UHGV virus genome: UHGV-0143361
DNA from: a virus
Length of the DNA: 12,686 bases
Reading direction: 5' to 3' (one strand)
The notes below the pieces were generated by a model, which was not told the origin of the DNA, did not search any database, and saw only the letters and a program-made list of their open reading frames with translations. Position numbers and translations under genes: made by a program. Position 1 is the first letter of the stretch, and each line of letters opens with the position of its first letter. Positions 1-12,686 of this stretch are shown here, piece after piece.

Positions 1-53
1 CCGGGGTCCGGCAGAATGTAGGTTGCGCTGGTCTGCGCCTGACGAATTTTCAT
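1..53 (-). CDS. Partial CDS, 5' end of the next phage head-morphogenesis gene (runs off the window)
   Basis: ATG at 51-53 on the minus strand overlaps the connector stop (ATGA coupling); frame reads MKIRQAQTSATYILPDP and stays open to the window edge. Function is inferred only from HK97-like gene order. Confidence 0.3.
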   Translation of the reverse strand, partial: MKIRQAQTSATYILPDP

Positions 54-373
54 AGTGGTATAAGGCGATAAGGAACAACCAACCAGTTAAAACTCATTGG
101 CAACTCCATTTTCTCAACGTCTGTAACCGTTGAGCGGTTTTCGTAGAAATGGCTGACAAGTAGCAGAAGCGCCAGCTTCACATCATCAGATATCACAAGC
201 CCATCAGGATCATCCGCAGGCCTGTCATCTGCGGTTGCATACAACTTACGGTTAAGGAAGTTTTCCGTACGACTCTGAGCGGCCTTACCAAGCAGTTCAA
301 GCAACTCATCTTCATCAGAGAAATCATCATCCAGACGGAGCTGAAGCTTAATCTCTTCCATTTTTAACAGCAT
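50..373 (-). CDS. Head-tail connector / DNA-packaging protein (HK97 gp6-like)
   Basis: ORF 50..418 trimmed to the ATG at 371-373, which has an AGGAGG Shine-Dalgarno 4 nt upstream. Product starts MLLKMEEIKLQLRLDDDFSDEDELLELL, acidic and about 108 aa, placed right after the major capsid gene as in HK97-type heads. Confidence 0.75.
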   Translation of the reverse strand: MLLKMEEIKLQLRLDDDFSDEDELLELLGKAAQSRTENFLNRKLYATADDRPADDPDGLVISDDVKLALLLLVSHFYENRSTVTDVEKMELPMSFNWLVVPYRLIPL

Positions 374-383
374 AAAACCTCCT

Positions 384-425
384 GTGCCCGCCAGAACGCG
401 GGCACAAAAAAACCGCATTACGCGG
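384..425 (-). promoter_or_regulatory. Structured intergenic region between capsid and connector genes: weak hairpin plus U7, then a perfect 8-bp hairpin
   Basis: Plus-strand GTGCCCGC-cagaac-GCGGGCAC at 384-405 is a perfect 8-bp stem with a 6-nt loop. On the minus-strand RNA a 4-bp CCGC/GCGG hairpin (413-425) is followed by seven U (406-412), then the strong hairpin, then the SD. Likely attenuator or mRNA-processing site after the highly expressed capsid gene. Confidence 0.4.
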
Positions 426-451
426 CGTGCTGTATTACGTAAAAAGACTAA

Positions 452-1681
452 TCAACCACCAACGCTACCTTTCCCCACCAGCGCTTTAATGGCAGAGGTG
501 TCTTCCAGGATACAGTCAAAACGATGGAAGGCCAGAAAACCGGTCTGATCATATTCCGCGTAACGCTCAACCAGACGTTTAAGAATCATGTATCGCACAC
601 GACGGATAATGAAGCGATCAAAGTCACCACAGAACATGAATTTTTTACCCGCCCCGATATCATCAATTTCCTGATCAATGACATACGGTACATTCAACAC
701 TGAAGCAGGTGCCACACCAACAATATCCGGCAACCATAAAGGGCGTCCCTGACCGTCTTCCATCTCACTGATCAGTTTCAGCGTATTATCGTTAAACGCC
801 AGGCGGAATTTCGGCCCGCGACGATATGCAGGATCAATGCTGTGTTTCAGAGCCAGAATTTCCTGCCACTTCACCGTATTTGCCGCGGCAGTCTGTGTTG
901 TGCCGGTCACAGATGCGACCAGCCCTTTGGGTTGTTTAGGCGTACCAGCACCAGTTCCCTGAATCAGATAACGGGCTTCACCACGACCAATACGTTCAGC
1001 AATACGACGGGCAAGATAAGCTTCCATATCGATCGCGCTGTCCTGCAGCAACTCATTAGACACACGAATGATTTTCGATGTCATTTTGAGCGCCCCAAGA
1101 CTTCCCATACCGAAATCGGTGTCTTCTTCACCGGCTTCTTCATTTTCGCCCAGCAGAACACCAACTTCGGAAGTACCATCAGCTGTTGCCCACTCCATAG
1201 TGCGACCGTCAGAAGTGGTAAGAATCTGCGCCACACTGGCGATGCCACCGTAGGACTTCATCTTCTCAACAACTTTCGCCAGGAATGTTTCTGGTACGGT
1301 ATATCCGCCCTTTTCATCCTGAGCTACGCCCTGGGCACGAAGTTCACGCAACGCCTTTCGTTCTTCTGATGTCAGCTCACTGGCACCGTGACGCATCCAC
1401 TTATCAAAAACCTGAGCTCGTTTCTCATCCTGTTGCGGATTGTTTTCCGGATCAAGATTCTGACGCTGCTCTTCCTCATTGCTTTCAATGTACGCCTGAT
1501 CCTGACGACGCAGTTCTTCTTCGCGTGCAATTCGTTCATCAAGCGCTTCCAGTTCGGATTTTGCTTTGTTCCACTCAGTGCGCTGCTCTTCCGTCCATGC
1601 GTTATCACCAATTTTTTCATTCAGGGCACGCATGTCAGTTGCGATAGTATTACGTTTCTGTTTCAGTTCATGCAGTTTCAT
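452..1681 (-). CDS. Major capsid protein, HK97 family, with N-terminal delta (scaffold) domain
   Basis: 409 aa; N-terminal 100+ residues are a charged coiled-coil (EELRRQDQAYIESNEEEQRQ...) followed by a capsid-like body. ATG at 1679-1681 has an AGGAAA SD. Sits directly after the prohead protease with no separate scaffold gene, the HK97 arrangement. Confidence 0.92.
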   Translation of the reverse strand: MKLHELKQKRNTIATDMRALNEKIGDNAWTEEQRTEWNKAKSELEALDERIAREEELRRQDQAYIESNEEEQRQNLDPENNPQQDEKRAQVFDKWMRHGASELTSEERKALRELRAQGVAQDEKGGYTVPETFLAKVVEKMKSYGGIASVAQILTTSDGRTMEWATADGTSEVGVLLGENEEAGEEDTDFGMGSLGALKMTSKIIRVSNELLQDSAIDMEAYLARRIAERIGRGEARYLIQGTGAGTPKQPKGLVASVTGTTQTAAANTVKWQEILALKHSIDPAYRRGPKFRLAFNDNTLKLISEMEDGQGRPLWLPDIVGVAPASVLNVPYVIDQEIDDIGAGKKFMFCGDFDRFIIRRVRYMILKRLVERYAEYDQTGFLAFHRFDCILEDTSAIKALVGKGSVGG

Positions 1682-1691
1682 GATGTTTCCT

Positions 1692-2294
1692 TTACGCGTT
1701 AAGAAGGGTCAGGACGCGCTCACGCGCCATACGTTGATTAATGGCTTTCTGTAGCGCGCCGCTGTTGCGCGCCTCCTGCCATGCTTTCATGGAGCGAACA
1801 GCCGAGTCAGCCTCCTGATAGGCAGGATATGTCACAGGACTGACATCCAGCAGACGGGAAAAGCGGGTTATCTCGCGAATAACAACCCCGTCCTCATCCT
1901 GATACCACTCCTCGCCGTCACGGGCGACACGGAAAGCAAAAGATGACTGGTTAATATCTCCACGTTGCATCGGGGCCAGCACCAGATCACGAATGGTCTG
2001 TGTCTCCGGAGCCTGGATGTCATAGCGCAATCCGCGCTCATCAACTGAAAGATTCAGCGTGCCTGCTGCACTACGCCCAAGAATAAAATTAGGATCGTGG
2101 TTAAACAGTGCGCGTACATCATCACCAAGCACATCGTCAAAAGCGCCGGGCCGGATGATTTCGCGGAATGAACCAAATATCAGCTCAGAACGACAGTCAA
2201 ACACCGATCCATAACCGATAATGTGCGCAGGGTTATCGTCATGCCGCTCAGCACGCACCTCACCGCTGTAACAACGGATTTCACGGTCATTCAT
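1692..2294 (-). CDS. Prohead maturation protease, HK97 family (S78 peptidase)
   Basis: ORF 1692..2351 trimmed to the ATG at 2292-2294 (MNDREIRCY...), which has a GAGGGA SD 7 nt upstream and overlaps the portal stop. Alternative starts exist at 2309 and 2351. Position between portal and capsid, about 200 aa, with protease-like HIIGYGSVFD and SSFAF segments. Confidence 0.85.
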   Translation of the reverse strand: MNDREIRCYSGEVRAERHDDNPAHIIGYGSVFDCRSELIFGSFREIIRPGAFDDVLGDDVRALFNHDPNFILGRSAAGTLNLSVDERGLRYDIQAPETQTIRDLVLAPMQRGDINQSSFAFRVARDGEEWYQDEDGVVIREITRFSRLLDVSPVTYPAYQEADSAVRSMKAWQEARNSGALQKAINQRMARERVLTLLNA

Positions 2295-3513
2295 TGGTTT
2301 TTCCCTCATCTTTTTTTGGGGGCTTAAAATCTCCTGCCGGGTTAGCAGCATTCACGCTTACCAGCATCTCATCCAGCCCTTCAACCGGATTCATATCCTC
2401 GAATGCGCGGGCCTCATTACGGCTCATCCATCCATCGGTAATAGCGAAGTGATAGAATTGCGCGCGCTCCTGCGGAGTTCCGCGTAAAAGCCCCGTCAGA
2501 TTGAACCTGACGTAATACCCGGCGGCTAACTCAGCGCGGGTAAACAAGCGACGGTTAAGCTCCTGCTCCCAGTTCGTCACCCACGGCATCATCGTGTAGC
2601 GGACAAACTGAATCGCCTGCGCAGAAATATTGGAGAAGGTGGCTTTTTCGAGGTCATTAATCATGTGCGCAGGAATATTGAAAATACCGGCAATCATTGA
2701 ACGGTTCAGTTTCATCATGTCAATGATCTGAGCGTCAACTGGCGACACAGTCAGTGCCTTGTAATCCAGATCGGCTGGCAGCAGCATGGTTTTGTTTTCC
2801 TGGCTGCGTAACGCCTGCGATGCCTTCTGCCACTGATCTTTAAGCCAGCCCCAGCTGTCCTTATTGAGTCCGCTTTTAACGGATACTATCCCCGCCGGAC
2901 GGGCATTACCGCTGAAGAAGCTTTCTGTGTATTTCTGACCGCTCATCCCCATGCCTATTGTTTCGGCATGTTGCATAATCGGACTCAGCCCCATCTTCTG
3001 ATTATTACCCAGCGCACGGATGTGGATCATATCGTCGGGGCTGATCGCAAACGCCCCATATTCGTTGTACAAACCGTAGGTGTATCGGCCACCAGTATTC
3101 ATCAGCGTCGTTTCCCACGGCATACAGCAATCCAGGGATATGACTTCACCGCGACGATTACGTTTCACCCAGGTATACCCATTCCCCCAGCCAAGGATGT
3201 GACGTTGCTTCAGTTCGCGCCATTTGTAACTGGTTTGCCAGGTATTGGGCTCATCATGAACCAGATAAAACGCCGGATGATCGCGTGCGGGCTCAACCTT
3301 CCCATTGTGCCTGCGCATAACATGCAACGGCATCTGGGCAAGGCTGGAAGACAGGACATAGATACAGGAATACACCGCAGCCAGTTTCATCGCAGTTTCA
3401 GGACTGACATAAACGTCTGCCCGGAACAGCCCATCAGTATCAACGGCATCCCCGGTTATCGGGGTGGAAGGATTCTCCAGTGATTTACTTCTGAACAGAG
3501 CATCAAGCAGCAC
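2287..3513 (-). CDS. Portal protein, HK97 family
   Basis: 408 aa between terminase large subunit and protease. The start as given in the ORF track is a GTG at 3511-3513; the exact start is uncertain. Confidence 0.9.
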   Translation of the reverse strand: MLLDALFRSKSLENPSTPITGDAVDTDGLFRADVYVSPETAMKLAAVYSCIYVLSSSLAQMPLHVMRRHNGKVEPARDHPAFYLVHDEPNTWQTSYKWRELKQRHILGWGNGYTWVKRNRRGEVISLDCCMPWETTLMNTGGRYTYGLYNEYGAFAISPDDMIHIRALGNNQKMGLSPIMQHAETIGMGMSGQKYTESFFSGNARPAGIVSVKSGLNKDSWGWLKDQWQKASQALRSQENKTMLLPADLDYKALTVSPVDAQIIDMMKLNRSMIAGIFNIPAHMINDLEKATFSNISAQAIQFVRYTMMPWVTNWEQELNRRLFTRAELAAGYYVRFNLTGLLRGTPQERAQFYHFAITDGWMSRNEARAFEDMNPVEGLDEMLVSVNAANPAGDFKPPKKDEGKTNE

Positions 3514-3664
3514 GCGTCCCCCTTCTGGCCATAGCCAGTGCGCCCACCAGCAGTAAACCGCCGGACAGCATCAGAGCCGGAGCCATACCAAACTGCAGGT
3601 AAAACCCGCACGTAAGCAGGCCAAAACCAGCCAACCCGATAACATCAGCAATTAGTGATTTCAT
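3503..3664 (-). CDS. Small hydrophobic ORF (53 aa), putative membrane peptide between terL and portal
   Basis: My own translation: [53 protein letters not shown]. Its ATG (3662-3664) overlaps the terL stop (3661-3663) as ATGA, and its 3' end overlaps the portal GTG start. It is missing from the ORF track only because it is under 60 aa. Confidence 0.3.
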
Positions 3665-5394
3665 AGAATTAAGAGAACATCGTCCGGATCAAGAGATGAG
3701 AGGAAATCGTCGGGTTCTTTGAGCATTGCCCGACCGATCGCCATAATCAGTGCAACCGCACCATCGATTTTGTTTTCCGCCTGCTCCTTGACAGGCTTCA
3801 CCACATCATCGTTACCCGGAATGGTTTTGCCGACCACGTTGCCGATACACCAGGTCATGATGGGATTGCCATCATGATGAAAGCGCCCCGATTCAATTGC
3901 CGCTTCCAGCTCTTTCATCGGGTCGGACATGTTGGTGTAGTTCTGAATGATGGTGATGGGGTTCAGGTCTTCATCAGCAAGGTCATGCGACAGCCCGGTC
4001 GCCCCGAAGGGGTCGATGGGTGACTCACTGACCGGGCTGATTTTGTTCGCCGCTTTGGCCTCCTCGAGGATGTAGCGATAATCCACCTCCGCACCAGCGG
4101 TAACAGTCAGAACGCCCATTTCCACCCATTTCTGAAAGCGTTCGGCTGTCCGGCGATCTTCATTTTTCTCGACGCTGTACACCGTGTCATACGGTACCCA
4201 GAAACGCGGGGCCACACTGTAGTAATGCGTTTTACCGTCAATCTCGCGGGTATAAAGTCGCGCCATGCTGTTCATATCCAGCTTACGCGCCAGGTCAAAG
4301 GCCAGAATGCACGGCTGCCCCTCGAACTGCTCAAGGGTCAGTGATTTATCCTCGCAGCTCTGCCAGCTCACCAGGTTGAAATACGCCGAACGCGCCGACA
4401 CCCAGATATTGAGGTGTTTTGTTTTAAAGACGTTTGCCAGACGGGCGTTATTTTTCGCACGCTGTTGCTGACTTAACAAAAACTCACGGTAAACCGACAC
4501 CCCGATATTCGGGTTGGCTTTTTCCAGCACCTGTGGGTTGGTCCAGTCGTCACCTTCGTCAACGGTATAGATGATCCCGAACAGTTCATCGTTGGGTACC
4601 GAACCGTTGAGCATCTCGATAACTTCCCGCCGCTTGTCGTAGCACGGCCCCTCAATGTTGTACCCGGCGGTGGTGATGGCCCACATCAGTGGCTGACGTC
4701 GCGCCCCCATCCCGGTAAGCATCGTGGTATAAAGCGCATCGGTGGCGTGCTCGTGATATTCATCCACCACCGCACAGTGGGGTGATGATCCATCACCGGG
4801 GTTACCGATCAGCGGTTCAAACCGCGCGCCATCCTCCGGACGGTTCATGTTTGAGGCGTTAACCTCAATCCCGAACGCTTCCGTCAGCATGGGTGTGCGT
4901 TTACACATCAGTCGCGCCGGGCGAAAGACTTCCCACGCCTGTTTCTCTGTCGTGGCACCGGAATACACTTCCGCGCCAAACTCGTTATCACAGGCAAAAC
5001 AATACAGGGCGACACCGGCAGAGATTGCCGATTTGCCGTTCTTACGGGGGATTTCGGTATACACCTCCCGGAAGCGGCGCAGCCGGGTACCTTTATTGAC
5101 CCAGCCAAACGCACAGCAGATCACAAAGAGCTGCCACGGCTCCAGCGTGATGGGCATCCGTTTGAATGCCCACTCACCCTTGGTATGCGGCAACAGCTGA
5201 ATAAATTTGGCGGCCCGTTCAGCCAGGTCCTTGTCGAAGCGGTAACGAAACGACTTACTTTTTTCCGCCATCAGGTCATCAAGATGGCGCTGGCAGGCCT
5301 GAATCACAAACTGGCAGGCCACAATCTTTCCCCGCACGACATCACGGGCATACTGATTGGCAGCATTTACGTTGGGGTAAGATTTCCGGCTCAT
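3661..5394 (-). CDS. terL: Terminase large subunit
   Basis: 577 aa with ATG at 5392-5394, lying between terS and portal. Family recognised from the overall sequence (ATPase-like N-terminal half, nuclease-like C-terminal half). Confidence 0.93.
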
Positions 5395-5407
5395 GATTCG
5401 ATGATTT

Positions 5408-5893
5408 TCAGATTGTCAGAAACGGGTTAGTGGCTTTCTTCTTCCCCGCCAGGCCAATCAGACGCTGGCGGCTGCTGGGGTCGAGTCCGAGCATTGCCCC
5501 CGTGCTGCTCATCTCGGACTCCTGTTCTTTTTTGGCGGTCAGCTCCGGATTTTTGACCATGCCGCCCATTGCACCGGTGATGGTGTTGCCCTGTCTGGCA
5601 ATATTTTTCACGGCACGTCGCCAGAATTCATAGGCCACACACCACCGCTCAAGTACCGCCAGGTCAGTCACGCACAGCAGGCCCTGACCGCAGAGTTCTT
5701 TGGTTGTCAGTTGCCACATGATCGTGGCGAGAGGGAGATCTTCTTCTGCGAACCACTCCGGTGGCTCAACACCTTTGATGGGCGTAAAAACAGGTTCATC
5801 TTTATTCAGGGCTCGCTTGCCGGGGTTTCCGGCCAGCGCCTTGCGCGCCGTTGGCTTGGGGCGACGCCCGGAACGCCCCGCCGTTCCAGCCAT
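5408..5893 (-). CDS. terS: Terminase small subunit, P27 family
   Basis: ORF 5408..5902 trimmed to the ATG at 5891-5893 ([14 protein letters not shown]...), with AGGAG 8 nt upstream; the track's GTG start overlaps that SD. Carries the GNPGKR motif typical of P27-family small terminases and sits immediately upstream of terL. Confidence 0.85.
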
Positions 5894-5902
5894 ATGCGGC
5901 AC

Positions 5903-6018
5903 TCCTGGTTAAATTTCATTTTTCGCGGGTATAAAAAAACGATGGGGCGGGCAGTCCGGAAGACGTCAGGTCACAGGGATTTGACCCGCCCCTCCCCTCA
6001 GACAGTTGAGAATTATTA
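5903..6018 (-). other. Candidate cos / packaging-recognition region with terminator-like structure
   Basis: A 116-bp non-coding gap between HNH and terS. GGGGCGGG (5944-5951) and CCCGCCCC (5986-5993) form an 8-bp GC inverted repeat, with a nested GGTCA/TGACC pair and the palindromes GACGTC and TCCGGA inside, followed on the minus strand by seven U (5933-5939). In HK97-like phages cos lies between the HNH gene and terS. Confidence 0.35.
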
Positions 6019-6369
6019 TCACTTTAACCGTTCACGGGCCGTCTTCGCCTTATGACACGGCCAGCACAGACTCTGCAGATTACTGTCGGCATCAGTGCCG
6101 CCATGCGCTTTAGGAACGATGTGGTCAACGGTTTTCGCCTCACGCACCACACCAGCATGCAGACATGACTGACATAAACCTTTGTCACGCTTCAGGACGC
6201 GCTCGCGGATACCGTCCCACTTCGAACCATAACCGCGCTGATGACGGGACTGGCCCGGCTTGTATTGCTTCCAGCCTTCGCCTTTGTGGCTTTCGCAATA
6301 GCCTGACGGGTCTGTGGTTGTAGAGCGGCAGCCGCGAACACGGCAGGCTTTTGGGATTCGTGGTGGCAT
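6019..6369 (-). CDS. HNH endonuclease, packaging-associated
   Basis: ORF 6019..6432 trimmed to the ATG at 6367-6369 (MPPRIPKACRVRGC...), with an AAGAGGA SD upstream. Has CxxC and CxxH zinc-binding pairs and a DHIVPKAHGG...N...LCWPCH HNH motif. Location directly upstream of cos-terS matches the HK97-type HNH that assists terminase. Confidence 0.85.
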   Translation of the reverse strand: MPPRIPKACRVRGCRSTTTDPSGYCESHKGEGWKQYKPGQSRHQRGYGSKWDGIRERVLKRDKGLCQSCLHAGVVREAKTVDHIVPKAHGGTDADSNLQSLCWPCHKAKTARERLK

Positions 6370-6519
6370 TGCATAATCCTCTTGGATGGTTCGCGTGCGA
6401 TACGTGGCATCCTTCTCAGAATCGAATCGCACTCCACTCCGGTTTTGCCATAAACGATCTTTTATGCTTCGCTGGATGTAGTTGATAGTTGTTGAAACTC
6501 AATGAACAGGAGTTCACAA

Positions 6520-6855
6520 ATGAATAGTTATGAATGGGAATGGCTTTTAAACAAAGATGACACCCTATGCTTTTTCCCCGTAGGCCATTCTGTAGAAGGT
6601 AATTACAAAATTCACTTTGAGTTGAGCGGTAGTTGTAACCTTAGAGTCTCAGATGCTGAATGGCATGGTAAACCTGTACTGCTGTTCGAATACTTCGATG
6701 AAGATGATGACCGCCCTGCAATAATCGAAATATTAGAAACAACTACTACAACTGTGGAGGCGATGATCGGGCATCTGAATAGTATCGATAGTATTTACCA
6801 TGAACCGATTTACAAAGCGGTTTACGAGTGGGCCGTAAAGTTTTTCTATCGATGA
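6520..6855 (+). CDS. Hypothetical protein, about 111 aa, acidic (cargo gene 1)
   Basis: ORF 6502..6855 trimmed to the ATG at 6520, which has AGGAG 7 nt upstream. Plus strand, opposite to the phage operons, and visibly AT-rich. Contains an acidic stretch (EYFDEDDDRP) and a TTTT run. No family recognised by eye. Confidence 0.55.
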   Translation: MNSYEWEWLLNKDDTLCFFPVGHSVEGNYKIHFELSGSCNLRVSDAEWHGKPVLLFEYFDEDDDRPAIIEILETTTTTVEAMIGHLNSIDSIYHEPIYKAVYEWAVKFFYR

Positions 6856-6955
6856 TACTTCGTTATCTTGCTGGCATTCACAATACCTTTACATACTAAT
6901 GACATGCCAGCACAATACTGTCACTTACAACCGTTCGGATTACCTAGAGAAAAGT

Positions 6956-7525
6956 ATGATTCAGGATTTACTGATCGAAGCAATTAGTCACGATAGGATG
7001 CATAAAAAGTTAAATGAACTGAATTGCTACTTCTACAATCGCAAACATGAAACTCAAATACGTGATGAGTTAGTTGTTATTCTCAATCAAATCAGCACAC
7101 TAACTGCTTTAAGTGAGCATCCAAAACTCGGTATCGGCGCTGTTGACATATCACTTTATAACCAGTCGATATTAACGTCTGAACATAATGGCAATGTTGC
7201 AACCATCGAGATCAAACACCATTACCCAAAGGATTTACTTTATCGGCAAGTTCAAGAAGACATCATTTCCGATATTTCAAGAGTAATAGTTTCACCAACT
7301 ACACATTTTATCCATATAATCCAGCAAAGAACTATGATTAATACTCCTTCTTTTGGCCAAGTGAAATTCCTTGAACGTGATGCAAGTGATATCAGCACTT
7401 ATGTGCAATGCCTTGAAGAGCTAAGTTCCTTCCCCAGTATCTTTCATAAAAAAAGTATATGTATTGAGGTACTTGGTGAAATTATGTCGACATATACCTT
7501 TAACGTATATTCATTTGACAACTGA
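6956..7525 (+). CDS. Hypothetical protein, about 189 aa, weak PD-(D/E)xK-like pattern (cargo gene 2)
   Basis: ORF 6899..7525; start is either the ATG at 6899 (no SD) or the ATG at 6956 (A/G-rich leader), so the 5' end is uncertain. Co-directional with cargo gene 1 and AT-rich. The pair GAVDIS ... ATIEIKHH gives a D...E-x-K spacing compatible with a PD-(D/E)xK nuclease core; this is inference only. Confidence 0.5.
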   Translation: MIQDLLIEAISHDRMHKKLNELNCYFYNRKHETQIRDELVVILNQISTLTALSEHPKLGIGAVDISLYNQSILTSEHNGNVATIEIKHHYPKDLLYRQVQEDIISDISRVIVSPTTHFIHIIQQRTMINTPSFGQVKFLERDASDISTYVQCLEELSSFPSIFHKKSICIEVLGEIMSTYTFNVYSFDN

Positions 7526-7546
7526 TTAATTTGACAATTTTATTGC

Positions 7547-7804
7547 TTAATGGTTAGTTCTCTCTGCATCTATTTTACGAATATCAGCTTTATCCCGATT
7601 GCAGTTAGCCAGTGCAGACAACAGACTCACATTCAGCTCCAGGCTGGCACCATAAGTCAGAGGATTTGGTATGAACGGTACAGGTGTTTCAGAAGTCAGA
7701 CTAGTCGGTAATGTTGTAGCCGGAGTGCTCACGTAAACTGTCCGCGTACTTCCGCAACCGCTCAGCAGCGGCAGCAGGCACAAGGCGTGCAGCACAACCA
7801 TCAT
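7547..7804 (-). CDS. Rz1: o-spanin (Rz1-like outer-membrane lipoprotein)
   Basis: ORF 7547..7870 trimmed to the MM start at 7804. Signal peptide with lipobox LLSGC followed by a Pro/Thr-rich mature region (PATTLPTSLTSETPVPFIPNPL). Starts in an alternate frame inside Rz and extends 154 nt past the Rz stop. Confidence 0.7.
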   Translation of the reverse strand: MMVVLHALCLLPLLSGCGSTRTVYVSTPATTLPTSLTSETPVPFIPNPLTYGASLELNVSLLSALANCNRDKADIRKIDAERTNH

Positions 7805-8081
7805 CCGCAACAGCCACTTTGATATCTTTCTGGGTTCTCTGTGACTCCAGTGCGATCTGCTGTTTTGCATGCTGGTTAACCTCTATAACTGTATTGACGA
7901 TTTGCAGTGATTGCAGGACGTTACGGGTAATGGCTGTTGCAGATTCAGCATTTTGTACAGCCTCATCAGCACGTTTCTTTTCGTGCTGATATTTGCTGTA
8001 GTAGTGGTTGGCAGACCAGATGAAAGAACCGATGACAGTAAAGAAGAATGCAGCGATAACCAGCTTATAGCTCAACTTCAT
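7701..8081 (-). CDS. Rz: i-spanin (Rz-like)
   Basis: 126 aa with an N-terminal TM anchor (LVIAAFFFTVIGSFIW) and a charged helical periplasmic domain. Its ATG (8079-8081) overlaps the endolysin 3' end, the usual lysis-cassette position. Confidence 0.8.
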   Translation of the reverse strand: MKLSYKLVIAAFFFTVIGSFIWSANHYYSKYQHEKKRADEAVQNAESATAITRNVLQSLQIVNTVIEVNQHAKQQIALESQRTQKDIKVAVADDGCAARLVPAAAAERLRKYADSLREHSGYNITD

Positions 8082-8541
8082 TTACCACCCCACCAGCCTC
8101 TTTAAATCGGGCAATCAGGTCACCGATTTTATGTTCATACTGACCGTAACCTGCACCAGGTAACGACGCCCAGATATTGCTGCAACGGTCGATAGCCTGA
8201 CGAATATCACCGCGATCAATCATCGGTAAAGCGCCACGCTCTTTAATCTGCTGCAATGCCACTGCGTCCTGGCTTTTGGGGGAGAAGTCTTTCAAACCAA
8301 GCTGTTTACGGTAAGCATCCCACCAGCGTGAAAGAAGCTGATAACGCCCGGCGGCTGTTGATTTGAGTTTTGGGTTTAGCGTGACAAGTTTGCGAGGGTG
8401 ATCGGAGTAATCAGTGAAGAGTTCACCACCGACAATAACGTCATAACCGTGGTTACGTGTCGGTTGTCGTCCGTTATCCGTTCCTTCTGACCAAGCCACC
8501 ATATCAAGGAAAGCTTTACGCTGGGAATTTAGTACCTGCAT
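8065..8541 (-). CDS. R: Endolysin, lambda R-like lytic transglycosylase
   Basis: 158 aa. From memory it is near-identical over most of its length to phage lambda R (RKAFLDM.AWSEGTDNGRQ.TRNHGYDVIVGGELFTDYSDHPRKLVTLNPKLKST.AGRYQLLSRWWDAYRKQLGLKDFSPKSQDAVALQQIKERGALPMIDRGDIRQAIDRCSNIWASLPGAGYGQ). GGAG SD 7 nt upstream of the ATG at 8539-8541. Confidence 0.95.
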   Translation of the reverse strand: MQVLNSQRKAFLDMVAWSEGTDNGRQPTRNHGYDVIVGGELFTDYSDHPRKLVTLNPKLKSTAAGRYQLLSRWWDAYRKQLGLKDFSPKSQDAVALQQIKERGALPMIDRGDIRQAIDRCSNIWASLPGAGYGQYEHKIGDLIARFKEAGGVVNEVEL

Positions 8542-8544
8542 AAA

Positions 8545-8871
8545 TTACTCCTTAGAGCCACCAAATTTGTTACCGATTACTCGCATTGCAGCCCCACGAA
8601 TAGCATCGACACCGATCAACCCAACACCACCACCAATGGCAACAGAAAGCGATTTAGGCCATCCGACATACTCAAGAGCGGATGCAAAAGTCAGCGTCAG
8701 AGCGCCACAGAGTAGAATTTCGAGCGTTTTTCGCTTCCAGCCACCACCACCGCCAAAATAGGCGATGCGCAAACCAGCCATAACGATCGACATAATCACT
8801 GCACCCAGCGGTGTGTCTCCACGCCACCAGCTCTGGACCAAGTCCAGCCAGGTATTTGGGTTATGAGGCAT
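8545..8871 (-). CDS. Holin (three predicted hydrophobic segments)
   Basis: ORF 8545..8967 trimmed to the ATG at 8869-8871 (MPHNPNTWLD...). The track's GTG start lies inside the upstream terminator hairpin and overlaps the methyltransferase gene. Three hydrophobic stretches and a charged C-terminus, placed immediately upstream of the endolysin. Confidence 0.7.
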   Translation of the reverse strand: MPHNPNTWLDLVQSWWRGDTPLGAVIMSIVMAGLRIAYFGGGGGWKRKTLEILLCGALTLTFASALEYVGWPKSLSVAIGGGVGLIGVDAIRGAAMRVIGNKFGGSKE

Positions 8872-8914
8872 TTCGTCATCTCTCACCTCGCGATATTTGC
8901 GGGTGCTGTGTTGG

Positions 8915-8940
8915 AAATAAAAAGGCCACGCAACGTGGCC
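8915..8940 (-). terminator. Intrinsic terminator between the methyltransferase and holin genes (tR'-like position)
   Basis: Perfect 7-bp stem GGCCACG/CGTGGCC with a 3-nt loop (8924-8940), followed on the minus strand by UUUUUAUUU (8915-8923). Lies between the MTase stop (8948) and the holin ATG (8871). Confidence 0.6.
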
Positions 8941-8947
8941 ACCAGAA

Positions 8948-10000
8948 TTATTTCCCCACCAGTTCACTTACCTCTTTCACCGTCTGATTAAACCGCTCTG
9001 ACTCAAGTTCAACACCTAACGCCCGACGTCCCAGCGCCATTGCTGCTTTTATTGTGGAACCGGATCCCATAAAAAAATCAGCAACCAGATCACCTGGTCG
9101 ACTACTGGCATTGATTATTTGCCGGAGCATATCCGCAGGCTTCTCACACGGATGTTTACCCGGGTAGAACTGAACGGGTTTATGCGTCCAGACGTCGGTA
9201 TAAGGCACGGAAACTGATACGGAGAAATAGCGCCGGAGAGTTTTAAACTCATCCAGCAATTCAGAATATTTGCGATTCAGTGAATCATAAGATGCCACCA
9301 GCTGGTGGTGTGGTTGTTCCAGTTGTTGTTCCTGAAACTTCTCTGCCGCTATACGGGAAAACAGTGCCTGTAACTTCCGATAGTCAGCCTCATTCGGCAA
9401 CTGCCACTGACTGGCACCAAACCAGTGGGAAACCATATTTTTCTTACCTGTGGCTTCGGCAATTTGTTTTGCCGTTATACCCAGTTCGGCACGAGCATCC
9501 CTGAAATACGATATCAGCGGTGCCATTATGTGCTGTTTGAGTTCCCTTTCTTTTGCCGCATAGCCGTCACTTTTGCCGCGATATGGCCCCTGGTAATGTT
9601 CAGCAAACAGAACGCGCTCTGTGGCAGGAAAATATGCGCGCAGACTTTCTTTATTACACCCATTCCAACGTCCGGACGGCTTCGCCCAGATGATATTGTT
9701 AAGCACGTTGAAACGTTCACGCATCATGATCTCAATATCAGATGCCAGGCGATGCCCACAGAACAGGTAAAGGCTTCCGGCAGGTTTCAACACCCGCCAG
9801 AACTGGGCCAGACAGTGGTCCAGCCACTTAAGGTAATCTTCGTCCCCTTTCCACTGATTGTCCCAACCGTTGGGTTTCACCTTGAAGTAAGGCGGATCGG
9901 TAACAATCAGGTCAATGGAATCATCAGGCAGGGACTGAATAAAATGCAGGCAATCAGCGTTGATTAAATCAACACTGTTTATTTTTACAGTATTTTTCAT
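8948..10000 (-). CDS. DNA methyltransferase, beta-class amino-MTase (N6-adenine or N4-cytosine), apparently orphan
   Basis: 350 aa. Motif IV DPPY near the N-terminus (IVTDPPYF) and motif I FxGxG near the C-terminus (DFFMGSGST), the permuted order that defines beta-class amino-methyltransferases. No restriction endonuclease gene is adjacent. Confidence 0.9.
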   Translation of the reverse strand: MKNTVKINSVDLINADCLHFIQSLPDDSIDLIVTDPPYFKVKPNGWDNQWKGDEDYLKWLDHCLAQFWRVLKPAGSLYLFCGHRLASDIEIMMRERFNVLNNIIWAKPSGRWNGCNKESLRAYFPATERVLFAEHYQGPYRGKSDGYAAKERELKQHIMAPLISYFRDARAELGITAKQIAEATGKKNMVSHWFGASQWQLPNEADYRKLQALFSRIAAEKFQEQQLEQPHHQLVASYDSLNRKYSELLDEFKTLRRYFSVSVSVPYTDVWTHKPVQFYPGKHPCEKPADMLRQIINASSRPGDLVADFFMGSGSTIKAAMALGRRALGVELESERFNQTVKEVSELVGK

Positions 10001-10150
10001 GGATCAGTAAGCGTAACTCTGGTAGGCTCACTCTGCTTTTGCGCTAAAGCAGTGGGCCGTGGTTCGCTTGTGACCAGTAGGCATGAGCGAATGGCTGGCA
10101 GGTGCTACCAACACCCACCAGCCGCCCATTTTCACAGCAGGAAACCGCCA

Positions 10151-10354
10151 TTACTGGCAGCGTCTGAATTTATTCCCGTACCCGCCGTTATCCTTCGCCA
10201 GACCCGCCAGAACTAACTGAGTCAGTATTAACTGGCACCGGGCTTCGCTTACTCCGGTAGTTCTCGTCATCATGCGTGGCGTTACCCACTTGTCAGCAGG
10301 TAAGAAATGAAGGACTGCGGCGGCGGTTTCTGTCATATCTTGCTGTTTTAGCAT
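10151..10354 (-). CDS. Small putative winged-helix DNA-binding protein (67-75 aa)
   Basis: ORF 10151..10378; I favour the ATG at 10352-10354, which has an AAGGGA SD, over the track start. Size and the AAVLHFL...TGVSEARCQLILTQLVLAGLA pattern resemble small PapI/FaeA-like wHTH regulators. Family assignment is a recollection, not a search result. Confidence 0.45.
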   Translation of the reverse strand: MLKQQDMTETAAAVLHFLPADKWVTPRMMTRTTGVSEARCQLILTQLVLAGLAKDNGGYGNKFRRCQ

Positions 10355-10476
10355 GTCTTTTTCCCTTCTGGTTAACATGACATACCAATAACTCTTGTCT
10401 AAAAAGCCAGCAAGATAAAAAGTCAGTATTCACGACCACCAGCGTGTTTACTGTGCTGCACCAAGTTTACAGGTAC

Positions 10477-10501
10477 AAAAAAACCGCTCAGCGGCGGGTT
10501 T
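10477..10501. promoter_or_regulatory. Weak hairpin flanked by an A7 run and a T-run in a divergent intergenic region
   Basis: AAAAAAA-CCGC-tca-GCGG-CGGGTTT: a 4-bp GC stem with A7 on one side and T3 on the other. On the minus strand it reads hairpin plus U7, so it could be a weak terminator or attenuator. It sits in the 295-bp gap between the wHTH gene and the 339-aa gene. Confidence 0.25.
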
Positions 10502-10673
10502 AAGTTGTGTGGCGAAGTAACCACTCTTAACACAGTAATCTAGAAAATGCGGACCGCGTTAGTGATTTTTATCTGTTTTTCCATTATTTTTTTGCCACAC
10601 AGCTTAAAACGAAAAATAAAGCAGGCGTTGCCAAACCTCACGGTGACAGTTGGCTTAGAATGAGGACATATTT

Positions 10674-11693
10674 TTGGATAAGTTTGATGAGATTCATGTA
10701 GACATTGAATCTGAGCAGCAAGCCTTCGATTTGCTTGAAAGCTATCTTGATGGTTATGGTTTACCTGACAGTTTAAGTTTCAACGGATGGCCAAACCTTA
10801 CCATCAGATTAACCGGTGAAAAATTCAACAGATCGCTAACACCTTCAGTTATGAAGGGATTTGTTGAAATGCAAGCTCAAATCAACAAATCATATGCCCT
10901 TGCCAAGTACGGTGTCCCTGACGTCCGCAAACTGACCAAAGAAGAACTTGATGCCCTAGAAATAGAAGTTACGGTAGAACAGGGTTCTTCAATAGTAGAA
11001 ATCAACATTGATGGCTTTTTAACCAAACTCACACAGGAACTTGTTGGTAAAATGAACGCAACTGAGATCATGTTTACTGTTCTCGGCGCAGCAGTCATCT
11101 GGGGCGGAGTAACAGTATTTAAACGGTTCTTGGACAACCGTAAAGATATTCGCCTTGCAGAAATTGCTAAGGATGGAGAGAAAGAACATCTCCGGACTAT
11201 GCAGATCATGAGCGAGCAAGAAACTAAACGCCTGCGGGTTATTTCAGAAATGATTGCGGAAAAACCACTTCTCGATAACATGGACCGTATGTCGTATGAC
11301 GCTAAAACCCAAATGGTCAAATCCTTTGTGCGTTCAGATAACGCTCAAATTGATGGCGTTACTATTGATTCTGAAATGGCGAAAGAGTTGGTTACGAATG
11401 CTCGTAGACGTTCATCAGAAATGAGGATTGATGGTATTTACCGAATTGAAGAAGTCAATAATACTGACCCAGAGAGTTTCAAAGTTAAGGTCCGACGCGT
11501 AGATACCGACCAACGTCTAACCTGCGTAGTTCAGGATGTTTTCCTTGATGAATCCGGAAACAAAGAAGCATTGCAGCGAGCTGAGTGGGAAAGAAAGCCT
11601 GTACATTTGAGCATTAACGCAAAACACGTCGATGGTGACATTAAGTCAGCAGTAATTCTCTATGTTCGAGATGTGGAACAAAAGCCCGAGTAA
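10674..11693 (+). CDS. Hypothetical single-pass membrane protein, 339 aa (cargo gene, TTG start)
   Basis: Only in-frame start after the upstream stop is TTG at 10674, with GAGGA 7 nt upstream. One clear TM helix (IMFTVLGAAVIWGGVTVF, about residues 133-150) followed by KRFLDNRKDIR, and a charged, helix-rich C-terminal domain of about 190 aa. Plus strand, AT-rich, convergent with Q. No family recognised. Confidence 0.6.
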   Translation: MDKFDEIHVDIESEQQAFDLLESYLDGYGLPDSLSFNGWPNLTIRLTGEKFNRSLTPSVMKGFVEMQAQINKSYALAKYGVPDVRKLTKEELDALEIEVTVEQGSSIVEINIDGFLTKLTQELVGKMNATEIMFTVLGAAVIWGGVTVFKRFLDNRKDIRLAEIAKDGEKEHLRTMQIMSEQETKRLRVISEMIAEKPLLDNMDRMSYDAKTQMVKSFVRSDNAQIDGVTIDSEMAKELVTNARRRSSEMRIDGIYRIEEVNNTDPESFKVKVRRVDTDQRLTCVVQDVFLDESGNKEALQRAEWERKPVHLSINAKHVDGDIKSAVILYVRDVEQKPE

Positions 11694-11699
11694 TCGGGC
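11677..11699 (-). terminator. Intrinsic terminator downstream of Q, possibly bidirectional (shared with the convergent 339-aa gene)
   Basis: 6-bp stem GCCCGA/TCGGGC with a 4-nt loop (11684-11699); the TAA stop of the 339-aa gene lies in the loop. On the minus strand the hairpin is followed by UUUUGUU (11677-11683); on the plus strand it is followed by a U-rich UUCAAUAAUC. Confidence 0.5.
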
Positions 11700-11707
11700 T
11701 TCAATAA

Positions 11708-12085
11708 TCAATCTTTAATTTCGGGGTCCATCTCTAGACTAATTTCCAGCATCGATAGGCAGCCATCAATAAACCCCTCAGCCATCTGTATCTCAATGCG
11801 TATTAGTTTCTCATCCTTTTTACGAGCCTTGGCGAGCTTTCTTTTAGAGATACCGTATAGGTAATGGGCAACAAGAAGCGAATGTTCGTCCGGCCTTTTT
11901 TGCCTTAGACGAGCAAGACAACCTTCAATAATTAATGCATCACTATCTGAACATGCCTGACGTGTTTTGCTTGTATAGGGAAGAAGCCCTTTAAACCCAG
12001 CAGCTATAGGAGAATAGTCTACTCCTGAACTATCACTCGCCGCCCATGCTCCCCAACGATCCAGAACCATTTGAATATCACGCAT
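11708..12085 (-). CDS. Q: Late-gene antiterminator Q (Phage_antitermQ family, QuuQ/QuuD-like)
   Basis: ORF 11708..12100 trimmed to the ATG at 12083-12085 (MRDIQMVLDRWGAWAA...), with a GGAGA SD 7 nt upstream. The N-terminus MRDIQMVL.RWGAWAA...IAAGFKGL matches my recollection of E. coli prophage Q homologues; about 125 aa. Confidence 0.85.
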   Translation of the reverse strand: MRDIQMVLDRWGAWAASDSSGVDYSPIAAGFKGLLPYTSKTRQACSDSDALIIEGCLARLRQKRPDEHSLLVAHYLYGISKRKLAKARKKDEKLIRIEIQMAEGFIDGCLSMLEISLEMDPEIKD

Positions 12086-12102
12086 CAACTTTCTCCACAA
12101 AA

Positions 12103-12230
12103 TCAGGCCAGCACGCCAATTGCCAGCGCACGATCGATAAAACGAAATATCAGCTCCAGCTGAGAGCCATACTTTTCTTCAAATACCACGGTATCCGCAT
12201 GCAGCTCGTCGTGATGCTTTCTGCACAAAG
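12103..12230 (-). pseudogene. 3' fragment of a phage gene upstream of Q, truncated at the junction
   Basis: A minus-strand frame ends ...TVVFEEKYGSQLELIFRFIDRALAIGVLA* at 12103-12105, 17 nt before the Q start, in operon-like spacing with E. coli-like codons (CTG, CGT, GCG). It has no start because the sequence upstream of about 12230 is antisense to rimO. Confidence 0.3.
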
Positions 12231-12231
12231 G

Positions 12232-12636
12232 CAGCACGAAGAGGTCATGCGCTTTGTAGATGAGATGGAGTTCGAGCGTCTTGGCGTATTTACCTACTCA
12301 GCAGAGGAAGATACTCCGGCGGCAGATTTCCCGGATCAGATCCCGGAGGAGGTGAAGGAGGAGCGCCGCGACGAGATCATGGAGCTCCAGCAGGAAATTG
12401 CCTTTGAAAAGTCCGAATCCATGGTAGGACGAGTTCTGGATGTTATGATCGAGGGCAAGGTGGCTGACGAAGCTGCTTATGTGGGAAGAACCTACATGGA
12501 TGCCCCGAATGTAGATGGATATATCTTTGTTAACAGTGGTGAACTCTTTATGTCCGGTGATTTTGTCCGGGTGAAGGTCACTGGTTCCAATGACTATGAT
12601 CTGATCGGGGAGGTATACGATGAATCTGCCGAATAA
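12232..12636 (+). pseudogene. rimO: rimO (ribosomal protein S12 methylthiotransferase) 3' fragment with TRAM domain, 5'-truncated
   Basis: The C-terminal part of ORF 12046..12636 reads ...FERLGVFTYSAEEDTPAADFPDQIPEEVKEERRDEIMELQQEIAFEK...GRTYMDAPNVDGYIFVN...VRVKVTG..YDLIGEV, matching the RimO/MiaB C-terminus. The conserved GFPGET radical-SAM segment expected just upstream is absent in all frames. Codons (GAG, AAG, ATC, CTC) differ from the phage genes. Confidence 0.7.
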
Positions 12637-12686
12637 ACTGACCGTGCTGCGGGTGATCATGATCCCGTTTTTTGTAGCTGCACTTC
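12620..12686 (+). CDS. pgsA: CDP-diacylglycerol--glycerol-3-phosphate 3-phosphatidyltransferase (PgsA), 5' partial, runs off the window
   Basis: ATG at 12620 with a strong GGGGAGG SD 6 nt upstream, overlapping the rimO stop. Reads MNLPNKLTVLRVIMIPFFVAAL, a PgsA-like N-terminus. The rimO-pgsA adjacency is typical of Firmicutes. Confidence 0.6.
   Translation, partial: MNLPNKLTVLRVIMIPFFVAAL

What the first reader, a model, noticed from the sequence alone, without database searches (positions are those of the whole stretch)
10379..11707. Self-contained cargo gene between Q and the late genes: 339-aa single-pass membrane protein with TTG start
The plus-strand gene 10674..11693 is convergent with Q and antisense to the direction of late transcription. 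It has its own upstream intergenic region, starts at a TTG with a good GAGGA SD, and ends in a hairpin shared with Q. It is AT-rich by eye. The protein has a soluble N-terminal domain of about 130 aa, one TM helix and a charged helical C-terminal domain of about 190 aa, with no motif I recognise. The Q-to-S interval is the classic lambdoid slot for Stx and similar cargo, and membrane-anchored single-gene cargo there is often superinfection exclusion or abortive infection. It also physically separates Q from the lysis genes.
Basis: partly seen in the sequence, partly recalled or inferred. Interest (0 to 1): 0.7.

Follow-up and report, generated by a model that had tools for sequence, protein, structure and literature searches.

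The report
Uncharacterised prophage cargo gene beside Q
This is a real, strongly conserved, self-contained accessory gene of an E. coli lambdoid prophage, encoding a probable membrane-anchored protein of unknown function whose relatives usually sit where phages keep their anti-phage exclusion genes, so it is a good but untested candidate for a new defence family.

Summary
The ORF 10674-11693 (+) is real: TTG is the only possible start, GAGGA lies 7 nt upstream, and a 8-9 bp hairpin is shared with the convergent Q gene. GC is 42% against 53% for the structural genes. Comparison with an 'empty-site' Stx2a phage shows a 1.15-kb cassette (about 10580-11725) inserted between Q and the Q-specific late promoter region (10499-10585) with its terminator (10483-10495). 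The gene is therefore upstream of pR', not inside the late transcript and not in the Stx slot. Related phages carry other reverse-oriented cargo in this slot, including a TIR-domain protein. The protein belongs to a large unnamed family (PHROG 6191; 1,515 clusters at 50% identity) under strong purifying selection. All 11 sampled family members lie in temperate phages or prophages: at the Q junction, directly downstream of cI (the lambda rexAB position), between tail genes I and J, or in a Mu-like phage. AlphaFold gives an acidic N-domain with no fold match, a central hydrophobic helix, a helical linker and a C-terminal OB-fold. Best reading: a lysogen-expressed phage-exclusion protein, loosely analogous to AbiP/PdpSau. 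Function is inferred, not shown.

The parts
10580..11725 (.). Inserted cargo cassette: 94-bp upstream region, gene, hairpin and a replacement for the last ~6 codons of Q
   Evidence: In Stx2a phage EH2201, window 10000-10579 and 11726-12255 match sequences only 11 nt apart. The same backbone occurs with other cargo (NJS001) or with none (EC09, which has a different Q type).
10674..11693 (+). CDS, 339 aa, TTG start; PHROG 6191, unknown function
   Evidence: Purifying selection: pN 0.06-0.26 against saturated pS of about 0.8.
10662..10666 (+). Shine-Dalgarno GAGGA, 7 nt before the TTG; lies within the conserved TTAGAATGAGG motif
10674..11057 (+). N-terminal acidic alpha/beta domain (aa 1-128); its residues 46-106 are the best-conserved segment of the family; no known fold
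11064..11120 (+). Hydrophobic helix aa 131-149 (IMFTVLGAAVIWGGVTVF), predicted transmembrane, followed by the K/R-rich KRFLDNRKDIR
11403..11678 (+). C-terminal OB-fold domain (aa ~244-335)
11682..11701 (.). Hairpin shared by the convergent cargo and Q genes. The cargo stop codon lies in its loop. On the minus strand it is followed by UUUUGUU.
   Evidence: An analogous bidirectional terminator is annotated in mEp390.
11708..12088 (-). Antiterminator Q, Q21/Q933W family (PF06530); core intact, with a cassette-specific C-terminal tail PEIKD after LEMD
   Evidence: family assignment from 10.1101/651190.
10499..10585 (-). Q-type-specific conserved element, inferred to be pR' with its Q-binding and pause elements: GCGGTCCGCA, 16 variable bp, then TGTTAAGAGTGGTTACTTCGCCAC
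   Evidence: Shared with the cdtI, mEp390 and Stx2a phages, which have this Q type, and also with the Enterobacter and Klebsiella copies. Not shared with Ayreon, which has another Q type. It abuts Q in the empty-site phage.
10476..10495 (-). Intrinsic terminator of the late leader (hairpin plus T7 run)
   Evidence: annotated as a terminator in phage Ayreon; conserved.
10151..10378 (-). First late-operon gene (75 aa, phrog_331). It is backbone, not part of the cassette.

Best explanation
The interval holds a moron: a 1.15-kb single-gene cassette inserted between the Q gene and the Q-dependent late promoter of an E. coli lambdoid prophage, reading away from pR' and converging on Q (shown). With pR repressed in a lysogen, nothing should transcribe against it, so it is probably expressed from its own upstream region at a low level through its TTG start (inferred). 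The product probably anchors in the inner membrane through a single central helix. It would carry an acidic N-terminal domain of unknown fold on one side and a helical linker plus OB-fold domain on the other, probably cytoplasmic, side (predicted). I think it most likely protects the lysogen against other phages at the membrane. It would either block genome entry (superinfection exclusion) or sense an infection product through the OB or N-domain and collapse the membrane through oligomerisation of the glycine-rich helix (abortive infection, as described for AbiP and PdpSau). On induction, read-through from the early operon past Q would run antisense into the gene and could damp it, as reported for Tai in phi80 (inferred).
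For: Cassette and geometry. Own terminator and atypical GC in every host. Real, selected gene: (1,515 clusters at 50% identity). All 11 sampled family members are in temperate phages or prophages, each as a single-gene unit. E. coli, Enterobacter, Klebsiella and Serratia copies are at the Q junction. Salmonella, Yersinia, Morganella and Moraxella copies are directly downstream of cI. Acinetobacter copies are one or two genes further from cI. Pseudomonas copies are between tail genes I and J. One copy is in a Mu-like phage. The cI-N interval is the documented hotspot for the Abi systems rexAB and bstA and is highly transcribed in lysogens (PMC8585504). The Q-junction slot holds a TIR-domain protein in mEp390. 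Reverse-oriented, lysogen-expressed defence genes within Q-controlled regions have experimental precedent (Tai in phi80, PMC11364771). The combination of a membrane helix and an OB-fold recalls AbiP and PdpSau, which cause abortive infection with membrane depolarisation (PMC10127798, PMC13064643).
Against: There are no functional data for any family member. There was no hit to any PADLOC defence model at E<=1, no Pfam family, and no name in any source. The OB domain is near-neutral (pI 6.2 here; family mean 6.9), unlike the positively charged nucleic-acid-binding domains of AbiP and PdpSau. The best OB matches are secreted metal- or glycan-binding OB-folds. The membrane helix is only moderately hydrophobic, and an N-out topology would require export of a 128-aa domain with no signal peptide. 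No convincing sigma-70 promoter was found upstream of the gene. Genomic position is only circumstantial evidence for defence.
Confidence: 0.5

Rival explanations
1. It is a lysogenic-conversion factor unrelated to phage defence: a membrane protein that alters host envelope physiology, stress tolerance or host interaction, as bor, iss and lom do.
For: It is a moron with a membrane anchor. E. coli copies occur in APEC, UPEC and commensal strains, and iss lies in the same APEC O78 prophage. The OB-fold most resembles periplasmic or secreted ligand-binding OB domains such as CusF/SilF and AB5 B subunits. The OB domain is not basic.
Against: The family spans hosts with very different lifestyles (Acinetobacter, Moraxella, Pseudomonas, Burkholderiales, Enterobacterales). 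That fits a phage-directed function better than a host-niche one. There is no signal peptide or lipobox. The positions beside cI and beside a slot that holds a TIR protein point to defence.
Confidence: 0.2
2. It serves the phage's own life cycle, for example by modulating the lysis-lysogeny decision or induction, genome entry on infection, or lysis timing at the membrane.
For: It is adjacent to master regulators (cI in many phages, Q here). Purifying selection is strong. It is found only in temperate phages.
Against: It is absent from closely related, apparently complete phages with the same backbone and from all but three records of the phage collection, so it is dispensable. It occupies unrelated slots, including tail genes and a Mu-like phage, which does not fit a position-dependent regulatory role.
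Confidence: 0.12
3. It is a selfish addiction or toxin-like module that stabilises the prophage and gives the host no benefit.
For: It is a single membrane protein with weak (TTG or GTG) starts in most copies, suggesting that tight low-level expression matters. Its helix is glycine-rich, as in pore formers.
Against: No partner antitoxin gene travels with it: its neighbours differ in every context. It is too large and too multi-domain for known membrane toxins.
Confidence: 0.06

Closest known systems
AbiP / AbiC (Lactococcus) and PdpSau (S. aureus prophages)
   Same: These are single-protein systems that combine a membrane helix with an OB-fold-like domain. PdpSau is prophage-borne, sits next to the lysis module and causes abortive infection with membrane depolarisation (PMC10127798, PMC13064643).
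   Different: Their helix is N-terminal, whereas here it is central, behind a 128-aa acidic domain of unknown fold. Their OB-like domain is positively charged and binds nucleic acid, whereas this one is near-neutral. No sequence similarity was detected. The hosts are Gram-positive.
Lambda RexAB and Salmonella BTP1 BstA (Abi systems in the cI-N interval)
   Same: Yersinia, Salmonella, Morganella and Moraxella homologues sit in the same position, directly downstream of and co-oriented with cI. RexB acts at the membrane.
   Different: There is no homology. Rex has two proteins, including a four-helix channel. BstA is a soluble DNA-associated protein. The window copy is at the Q junction, not beside cI.
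Tai/Ati of phage phi80
   Same: Tai is a reverse-oriented defence gene embedded in the Q-controlled region of a lambdoid prophage. It is expressed in lysogens and damped when Q drives late transcription (PMC11364771).
   Different: [quoted passage not shown] This 38-kDa protein lies upstream of pR'. tblastn found no phi80 match, and no cognate anti-defence gene is evident.
Morons as defined for HK97 and lambdoid phages (for example HK97 gp15, bor, lom, stx)
   Same: It is an independent unit with its own terminator and atypical composition, inserted between genes that are adjacent in relatives. HK97 gp15 is a membrane superinfection-exclusion moron within tail genes, like the Pseudomonas copies here (the gp15 comparison is from my own knowledge).
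   Different: The promoter is not identified. Unlike stx, it is not downstream of pR' and would not be Q-dependent.

Membership tests
Moron (independent accessory transcription unit in a temperate phage) | Inserted between genes or elements that are adjacent in related phages | tested here: met
   In the empty-site Stx2a phage, Q and the pR' element are 11 nt apart; here they are 1,146 bp apart.
Moron (independent accessory transcription unit in a temperate phage) | Own transcription terminator | tested here: met
   Hairpin at 11682-11701. A hairpin follows the stop codon in all ten other copies examined, most with a T-run.
Moron (independent accessory transcription unit in a temperate phage) | Own promoter | tested here: inconclusive
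   Only a 9/12 match that overlaps the SD. The upstream region is conserved but has no well-spaced -35/-10 pair. A TSS needs to be mapped.
Moron (independent accessory transcription unit in a temperate phage) | Base composition differs from the neighbouring genes | tested here: met
   GC 0.42 against 0.47-0.53 here, and lower than the flanks in all hosts examined.
AbiC/AbiP/PdpSau-type membrane-anchored OB-fold Abi proteins | Detectable sequence or profile homology | tested here: inconclusive
   No PADLOC family at E<=1 and no Pfam family.
AbiC/AbiP/PdpSau-type membrane-anchored OB-fold Abi proteins | N-terminal transmembrane anchor with the rest of the protein cytoplasmic | tested here: not met
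   The hydrophobic helix is at aa 131-149, after a 128-aa domain.
AbiC/AbiP/PdpSau-type membrane-anchored OB-fold Abi proteins | OB-fold-like domain | tested here: met
AbiC/AbiP/PdpSau-type membrane-anchored OB-fold Abi proteins | Positively charged domain that binds nucleic acid | tested here: not met
   OB domain pI is 6.2 here, with a family mean of 6.9. Binding itself is not testable with these tools.
AbiC/AbiP/PdpSau-type membrane-anchored OB-fold Abi proteins | Abortive-infection phenotype with membrane depolarisation | not testable with these tools
   Requires infection assays.
Lambda RexA/RexB | Homology to RexA or RexB; a two-gene system with a multi-pass channel | tested here: not met
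   No Pfam or PADLOC hit. It is a single gene with one hydrophobic helix.
Q-dependent late-operon cargo (Stx-type) | Located downstream of pR'/tR', co-oriented with the late genes, and therefore dependent on Q | tested here: not met
   The cassette lies between Q and the pR' element on the opposite strand. The stx position is shown.
Tai (tail assembly inhibition) | Homology to the phi80 orf63 family | tested here: not met
   tblastn against 50,697 phage records gave only Mcat17, Pmp14 and phi458, with no phi80 match. I did not confirm that phi80 is in the collection. Size also differs: 38 kDa against 26 kDa (PMC11364771).

The most novel reading that the evidence does not exclude
The protein founds a new, very widespread family of single-gene, prophage-borne anti-phage systems (over 1,500 clusters at 50% identity across Gamma- and Betaproteobacteria). 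It would have a previously undescribed architecture: an exported acidic sensor domain of novel fold, coupled through a glycine-rich transmembrane helix to a cytoplasmic OB-fold. That would allow detection of an incoming phage at the envelope and a response on the cytoplasmic side. It would also mark the Q/pR' junction as a defence hotspot distinct from the Stx slot.
Probability: 0.35. Interest if true: 0.7.

Novelty: new variant of a known kind. Interest (0 to 1): 0.5.

Why it matters
If the exclusion function is real, this would be a new and abundant defence family found in clinically relevant hosts: E. coli, Salmonella, Klebsiella, Enterobacter, Yersinia, P. aeruginosa and Acinetobacter. That bears on phage therapy host range. 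The domain arrangement is not found in catalogued systems. The mapping also shows that in Q21-type lambdoid phages the junction between Q and pR' is a recurrent insertion point for reverse-oriented cargo. Besides this gene it holds a TIR protein, a DUF6731 pair and others. It is separate from the Stx position, which helps when reading Stx-phage and prophage architecture and when mining for defence genes.

Tried and rejected
- **PADLOC.** No hits.
- **PDB sequence profile search.** Only noise, E>=0.14.
- **Rfam.** Nothing in the window.
- **AFDB Foldseek.** The library was unavailable.
- **BFVD.** Only uncharacterised proteins and generic OB domains.
- **Literature.** A search for the RefSeq accession found no papers. 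No source names any family member.
- **Promoter hunt upstream of the gene.** No convincing -35/-10 pair. The conserved TAGAAT/TATAAT abuts the SD and lacks a properly spaced -35.
- **pR' anatomy.** I could not assign -35, -10, QBE and SDPE within 10499-10585, because the Q21 paper gives those sequences only in figures.
- **Tai homology of the second insert.** tblastn of the window's 208-aa ORF against the phage collection found no match.
- **AB5-toxin B-subunit reading of the OB-fold.** Rejected: there is no signal peptide, the domain is at the C-terminus of a probable membrane protein, and OB-fold similarity is generic.

Full report
**The observation**

The window is the late region of an E. 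coli lambdoid prophage, read on the minus strand. In order it carries head, portal and terminase genes, HNH, lysis genes, a DNA methylase, a 75-aa gene and then Q. Window 1-12258 is 97.7% identical to chromosomal prophages of E. coli strains YZB902 and HE302. The interval 10379-11707 is 100% identical in many genomes, where the gene is annotated 'hypothetical protein'. The full-length interval occurs in 87 of 5,426 complete E. coli genomes.

The ORF 10674-11693 (+) is present as described.
- An in-frame TAG sits at 10656-10658, and there is no ATG or GTG before codon 60.
- Homologue conservation begins at about residue 8. TTG at 10674 is therefore the only usable start, and RefSeq calls the same start.
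- GAGGA lies 7 nt upstream of the TTG.
- The gene converges on Q (PF06530, E=2e-52), and the two stop codons are 14 nt apart.
- An 8-9 bp hairpin at 11682-11701 folds at about -14 kcal/mol on both strands, z about -2.8. On the Q strand it is followed by UUUUGUU.
- GC is 0.420, against 0.527 for the structural genes, 0.479 for the methylase and 0.438 for Q.

**Where the gene sits relative to late transcription**

Relatives with the same Q type give a precise map.
- In Stx2a phage EH2201, sequences matching window 10000-10579 and 11726-12255 lie 11 nt apart. Window ~10580-11725 is therefore an insertion of about 1.15 kb. It brings 94 bp of upstream sequence, the gene, the hairpin and a new tail for Q. 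The Q core is intact, and only the residues after 'LEMD' differ between phages.
- An ~87-bp element at 10499-10585 is shared with phages cdtI, mEp390 and Stx2a, which all have this Q type. The Enterobacter and Klebsiella prophages that carry the gene have it as well.
- Phage Ayreon has a different Q and shares only 10000-10500.
- In the empty-site phage the element abuts Q. It contains invariant blocks (GCGGTCCGCA, 16 variable bp, TGTTAAGAGTGGTTACTTCGCCAC) and is followed by the hairpin and T7 run at 10483-10495 that Ayreon's authors annotated as a terminator.

The canonical Q cassette is Q, then pR', a pause element, a terminator and the late genes (10.1101/651190). On that basis I infer that this element is pR' with its Q-loading site. 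I could not assign the individual hexamers.

Three consequences follow.
- The cargo lies between Q and pR', so late transcripts start beyond it and do not cross it.
- Only read-through from the early operon past Q would be antisense to it.
- It is not in the Stx position, which lies downstream of pR', the small gene, the methylase and the tRNAs.

**The slot is a hotspot**

The same junction holds other genes, all reading towards Q.

| Phage or strain | Cargo at the Q/pR' junction |
|---|---|
| cdtI; E. coli NJS001 (same backbone as the window) | DUF6731 protein plus a 147-aa protein |
| mEp390 | 272-aa TIR-domain protein (PF13676, at the gathering threshold), with an annotated bidirectional terminator shared with Q |
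| SfIV | Two genes plus IS1 |
| Klebsiella | An extra 269-aa gene stacked beside the homologue |
| E. coli EC09 (same backbone, different Q type) | No cargo |

**The family**

The protein matches PHROG 6191 (unknown function, E=1.6e-152). It has no Pfam family above threshold and no PADLOC model at E<=1. About 100 clusters at 90% identity were found, nearly all 330-345 aa, from Enterobacterales, Pseudomonas, Acinetobacter and Burkholderiales. A profile search found 1,515 representatives at 50% identity. No source names any member.

Between the E. coli copy and the Enterobacter, Klebsiella, Serratia, Salmonella and Yersinia copies, non-synonymous divergence is 0.06-0.26 while synonymous sites are saturated at about 0.8. 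None of the copies has a stop codon or frameshift. This is a real gene under strong purifying selection.

**Genomic contexts**

All 11 family members whose context I sampled lie in temperate phages or prophages, each as a single-gene unit.

| Slot | Hosts |
|---|---|
| Q junction, convergent with a PF06530 Q | E. coli, Enterobacter, Klebsiella, Serratia (two backbones) |
| Directly downstream of and co-oriented with cI | Salmonella (hundreds of contigs), Yersinia (two backbones; in one, cI, the gene, then N), Morganella, Moraxella phage Mcat17 |
| One or two genes beyond cI | Acinetobacter |
| Between tail genes I and J | P. aeruginosa |
| Mu-like phage | Metagenome contigs |

Every copy has its own downstream hairpin and is more AT-rich than its flanks, for example 0.46 against 0.63 in Pseudomonas. 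Most use a weak start codon: TTG in five genera and GTG in Pseudomonas. No neighbour travels with the gene. The cI-N interval is the documented hotspot for the abortive-infection systems rexAB and bstA and is strongly transcribed in lysogens (PMC8585504).

**Structure**

AlphaFold2 with a 49-sequence alignment gave pLDDT 85 and pTM 0.73.
- **Residues 131-149.** A hydrophobic helix (Kyte-Doolittle 1.77) with a conserved LGxAxIWGG motif, followed by a K/R-rich stretch. More K/R on the C-terminal flank is seen in 35 of 49 members. That gives moderate support for an N-out, C-in topology, which would require export of a 128-aa N-terminal domain with no signal peptide. The membrane assignment and topology therefore remain predictions.
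- **Residues 150-218.** Helical linker.
- **Residues 223-240.** A short beta element.

**Interpretation**

Shown:
- a selected, mobile, single-gene cassette with its own terminator and foreign composition;
- restriction to temperate phages in every context sampled;
- recurrent placement in lysogeny-expressed or accessory slots.

Inferred: the product is a lysogen-expressed protein acting at the inner membrane to exclude other phages. The nearest functional analogues are AbiP/AbiC and PdpSau. These combine a membrane helix with an OB-like domain and cause abortive infection with membrane depolarisation (PMC10127798, PMC13064643). Tai of phi80 shows that reverse-oriented defence genes near Q are expressed in lysogens and damped by late transcription (PMC11364771).

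It is not a member of any of these families.
- The helix is central, not N-terminal.
- The OB domain is not basic.
- No sequence similarity was found.
- It is much larger than Tai.

I put about 0.5 on the exclusion or abortive-infection reading, with no basis yet for choosing between the two modes. I put about 0.2 on a non-defence lysogenic-conversion role, about 0.12 on a phage-intrinsic role and about 0.06 on an addiction module.

**Verdict**

The transcriptional geometry and the domain description need correcting. The finding is a well-delimited candidate for a new, abundant prophage defence family and a newly defined insertion hotspot, but it is still a 'hypothetical moron' without functional evidence. 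I score interest at 0.5 and novelty as a new variant of a known kind.

Noticed in passing
window 12259-12686: The right end is not part of the prophage. Every E. coli match to the window stops at 12258. The sequence beyond encodes a RimO-type TRAM domain (PF18693, E=3e-22) followed by a PgsA-like start, which resembles a Firmicute rimO-pgsA locus. It is probably a chimeric assembly join.
   Followed up: partly
window 6433-7546: A second reverse-oriented, AT-rich insert (GC 0.37) carries two plus-strand ORFs, 6502-6855 (117 aa) and 6899-7525 (208 aa), between HNH/terminase and Rz. It is absent from the same backbone in E. coli EC09. There were no Pfam, PADLOC or phage tblastn hits. Its position matches that of the Tai defence gene in phi80, upstream of the packaging module and opposite to the late operon (PMC11364771).
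   Followed up: partly
window 10499-10585 (minus strand): A conserved element specific to Q21-type phages: GCGGTCCGCA, 16 variable bp, TGTTAAGAGTGGTTACTTCGCCAC, CTTAAA, then a hairpin and T7 run. The variable 16 bp contains an 8-bp-spaced direct repeat in the Stx2a phage (AGTATG..AGTATG). It could be the two-subsite Q-binding element, but I made no assignment.
   Followed up: partly
L016 1629-2447 (phage mEp390 gene 047): The cargo in the same Q/pR' slot of mEp390 is a 272-aa protein with an N-terminal TIR domain (PF13676, 28.7 bits against a cutoff of 28). It is annotated only as hypothetical and is a likely defence gene.
   Followed up: no
window 11708-11725; Q C-termini in L003, L016, L017, L018, L027: Each cargo cassette supplies a different C-terminal tail to Q after the conserved 'LEMD': PEIKD here, DWLLKK in Stx2a, C in mEp390 and none in SfIV. 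The Q21 paper reports that the six C-terminal residues of Q engage RNA polymerase (10.1101/651190), so these tails could affect Q activity.
   Followed up: no
L013 5308-9193 and L035 4050-7200 (Acinetobacter prophages): In Acinetobacter the homologue sits in a small island downstream of cI, together with a conserved 100-aa gene and a GGDEF-domain protein. L013 also has an HSDR_N-domain protein there. This suggests a multi-gene accessory or defence island.
   Followed up: no
L024 and L026 965-3234 (Klebsiella prophages): A Cas1-domain protein and an AcrVA2-like protein are encoded between the methylase region and the holins of the Klebsiella prophages that carry the homologue.
   Followed up: no
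H73, Escherichia phage phi458 9339-9725: tblastn found a 27%-identical match covering only the N-domain plus helix (aa 28-154) in phage phi458. The N-terminal module may occur with a different C-terminal partner.
   Followed up: no
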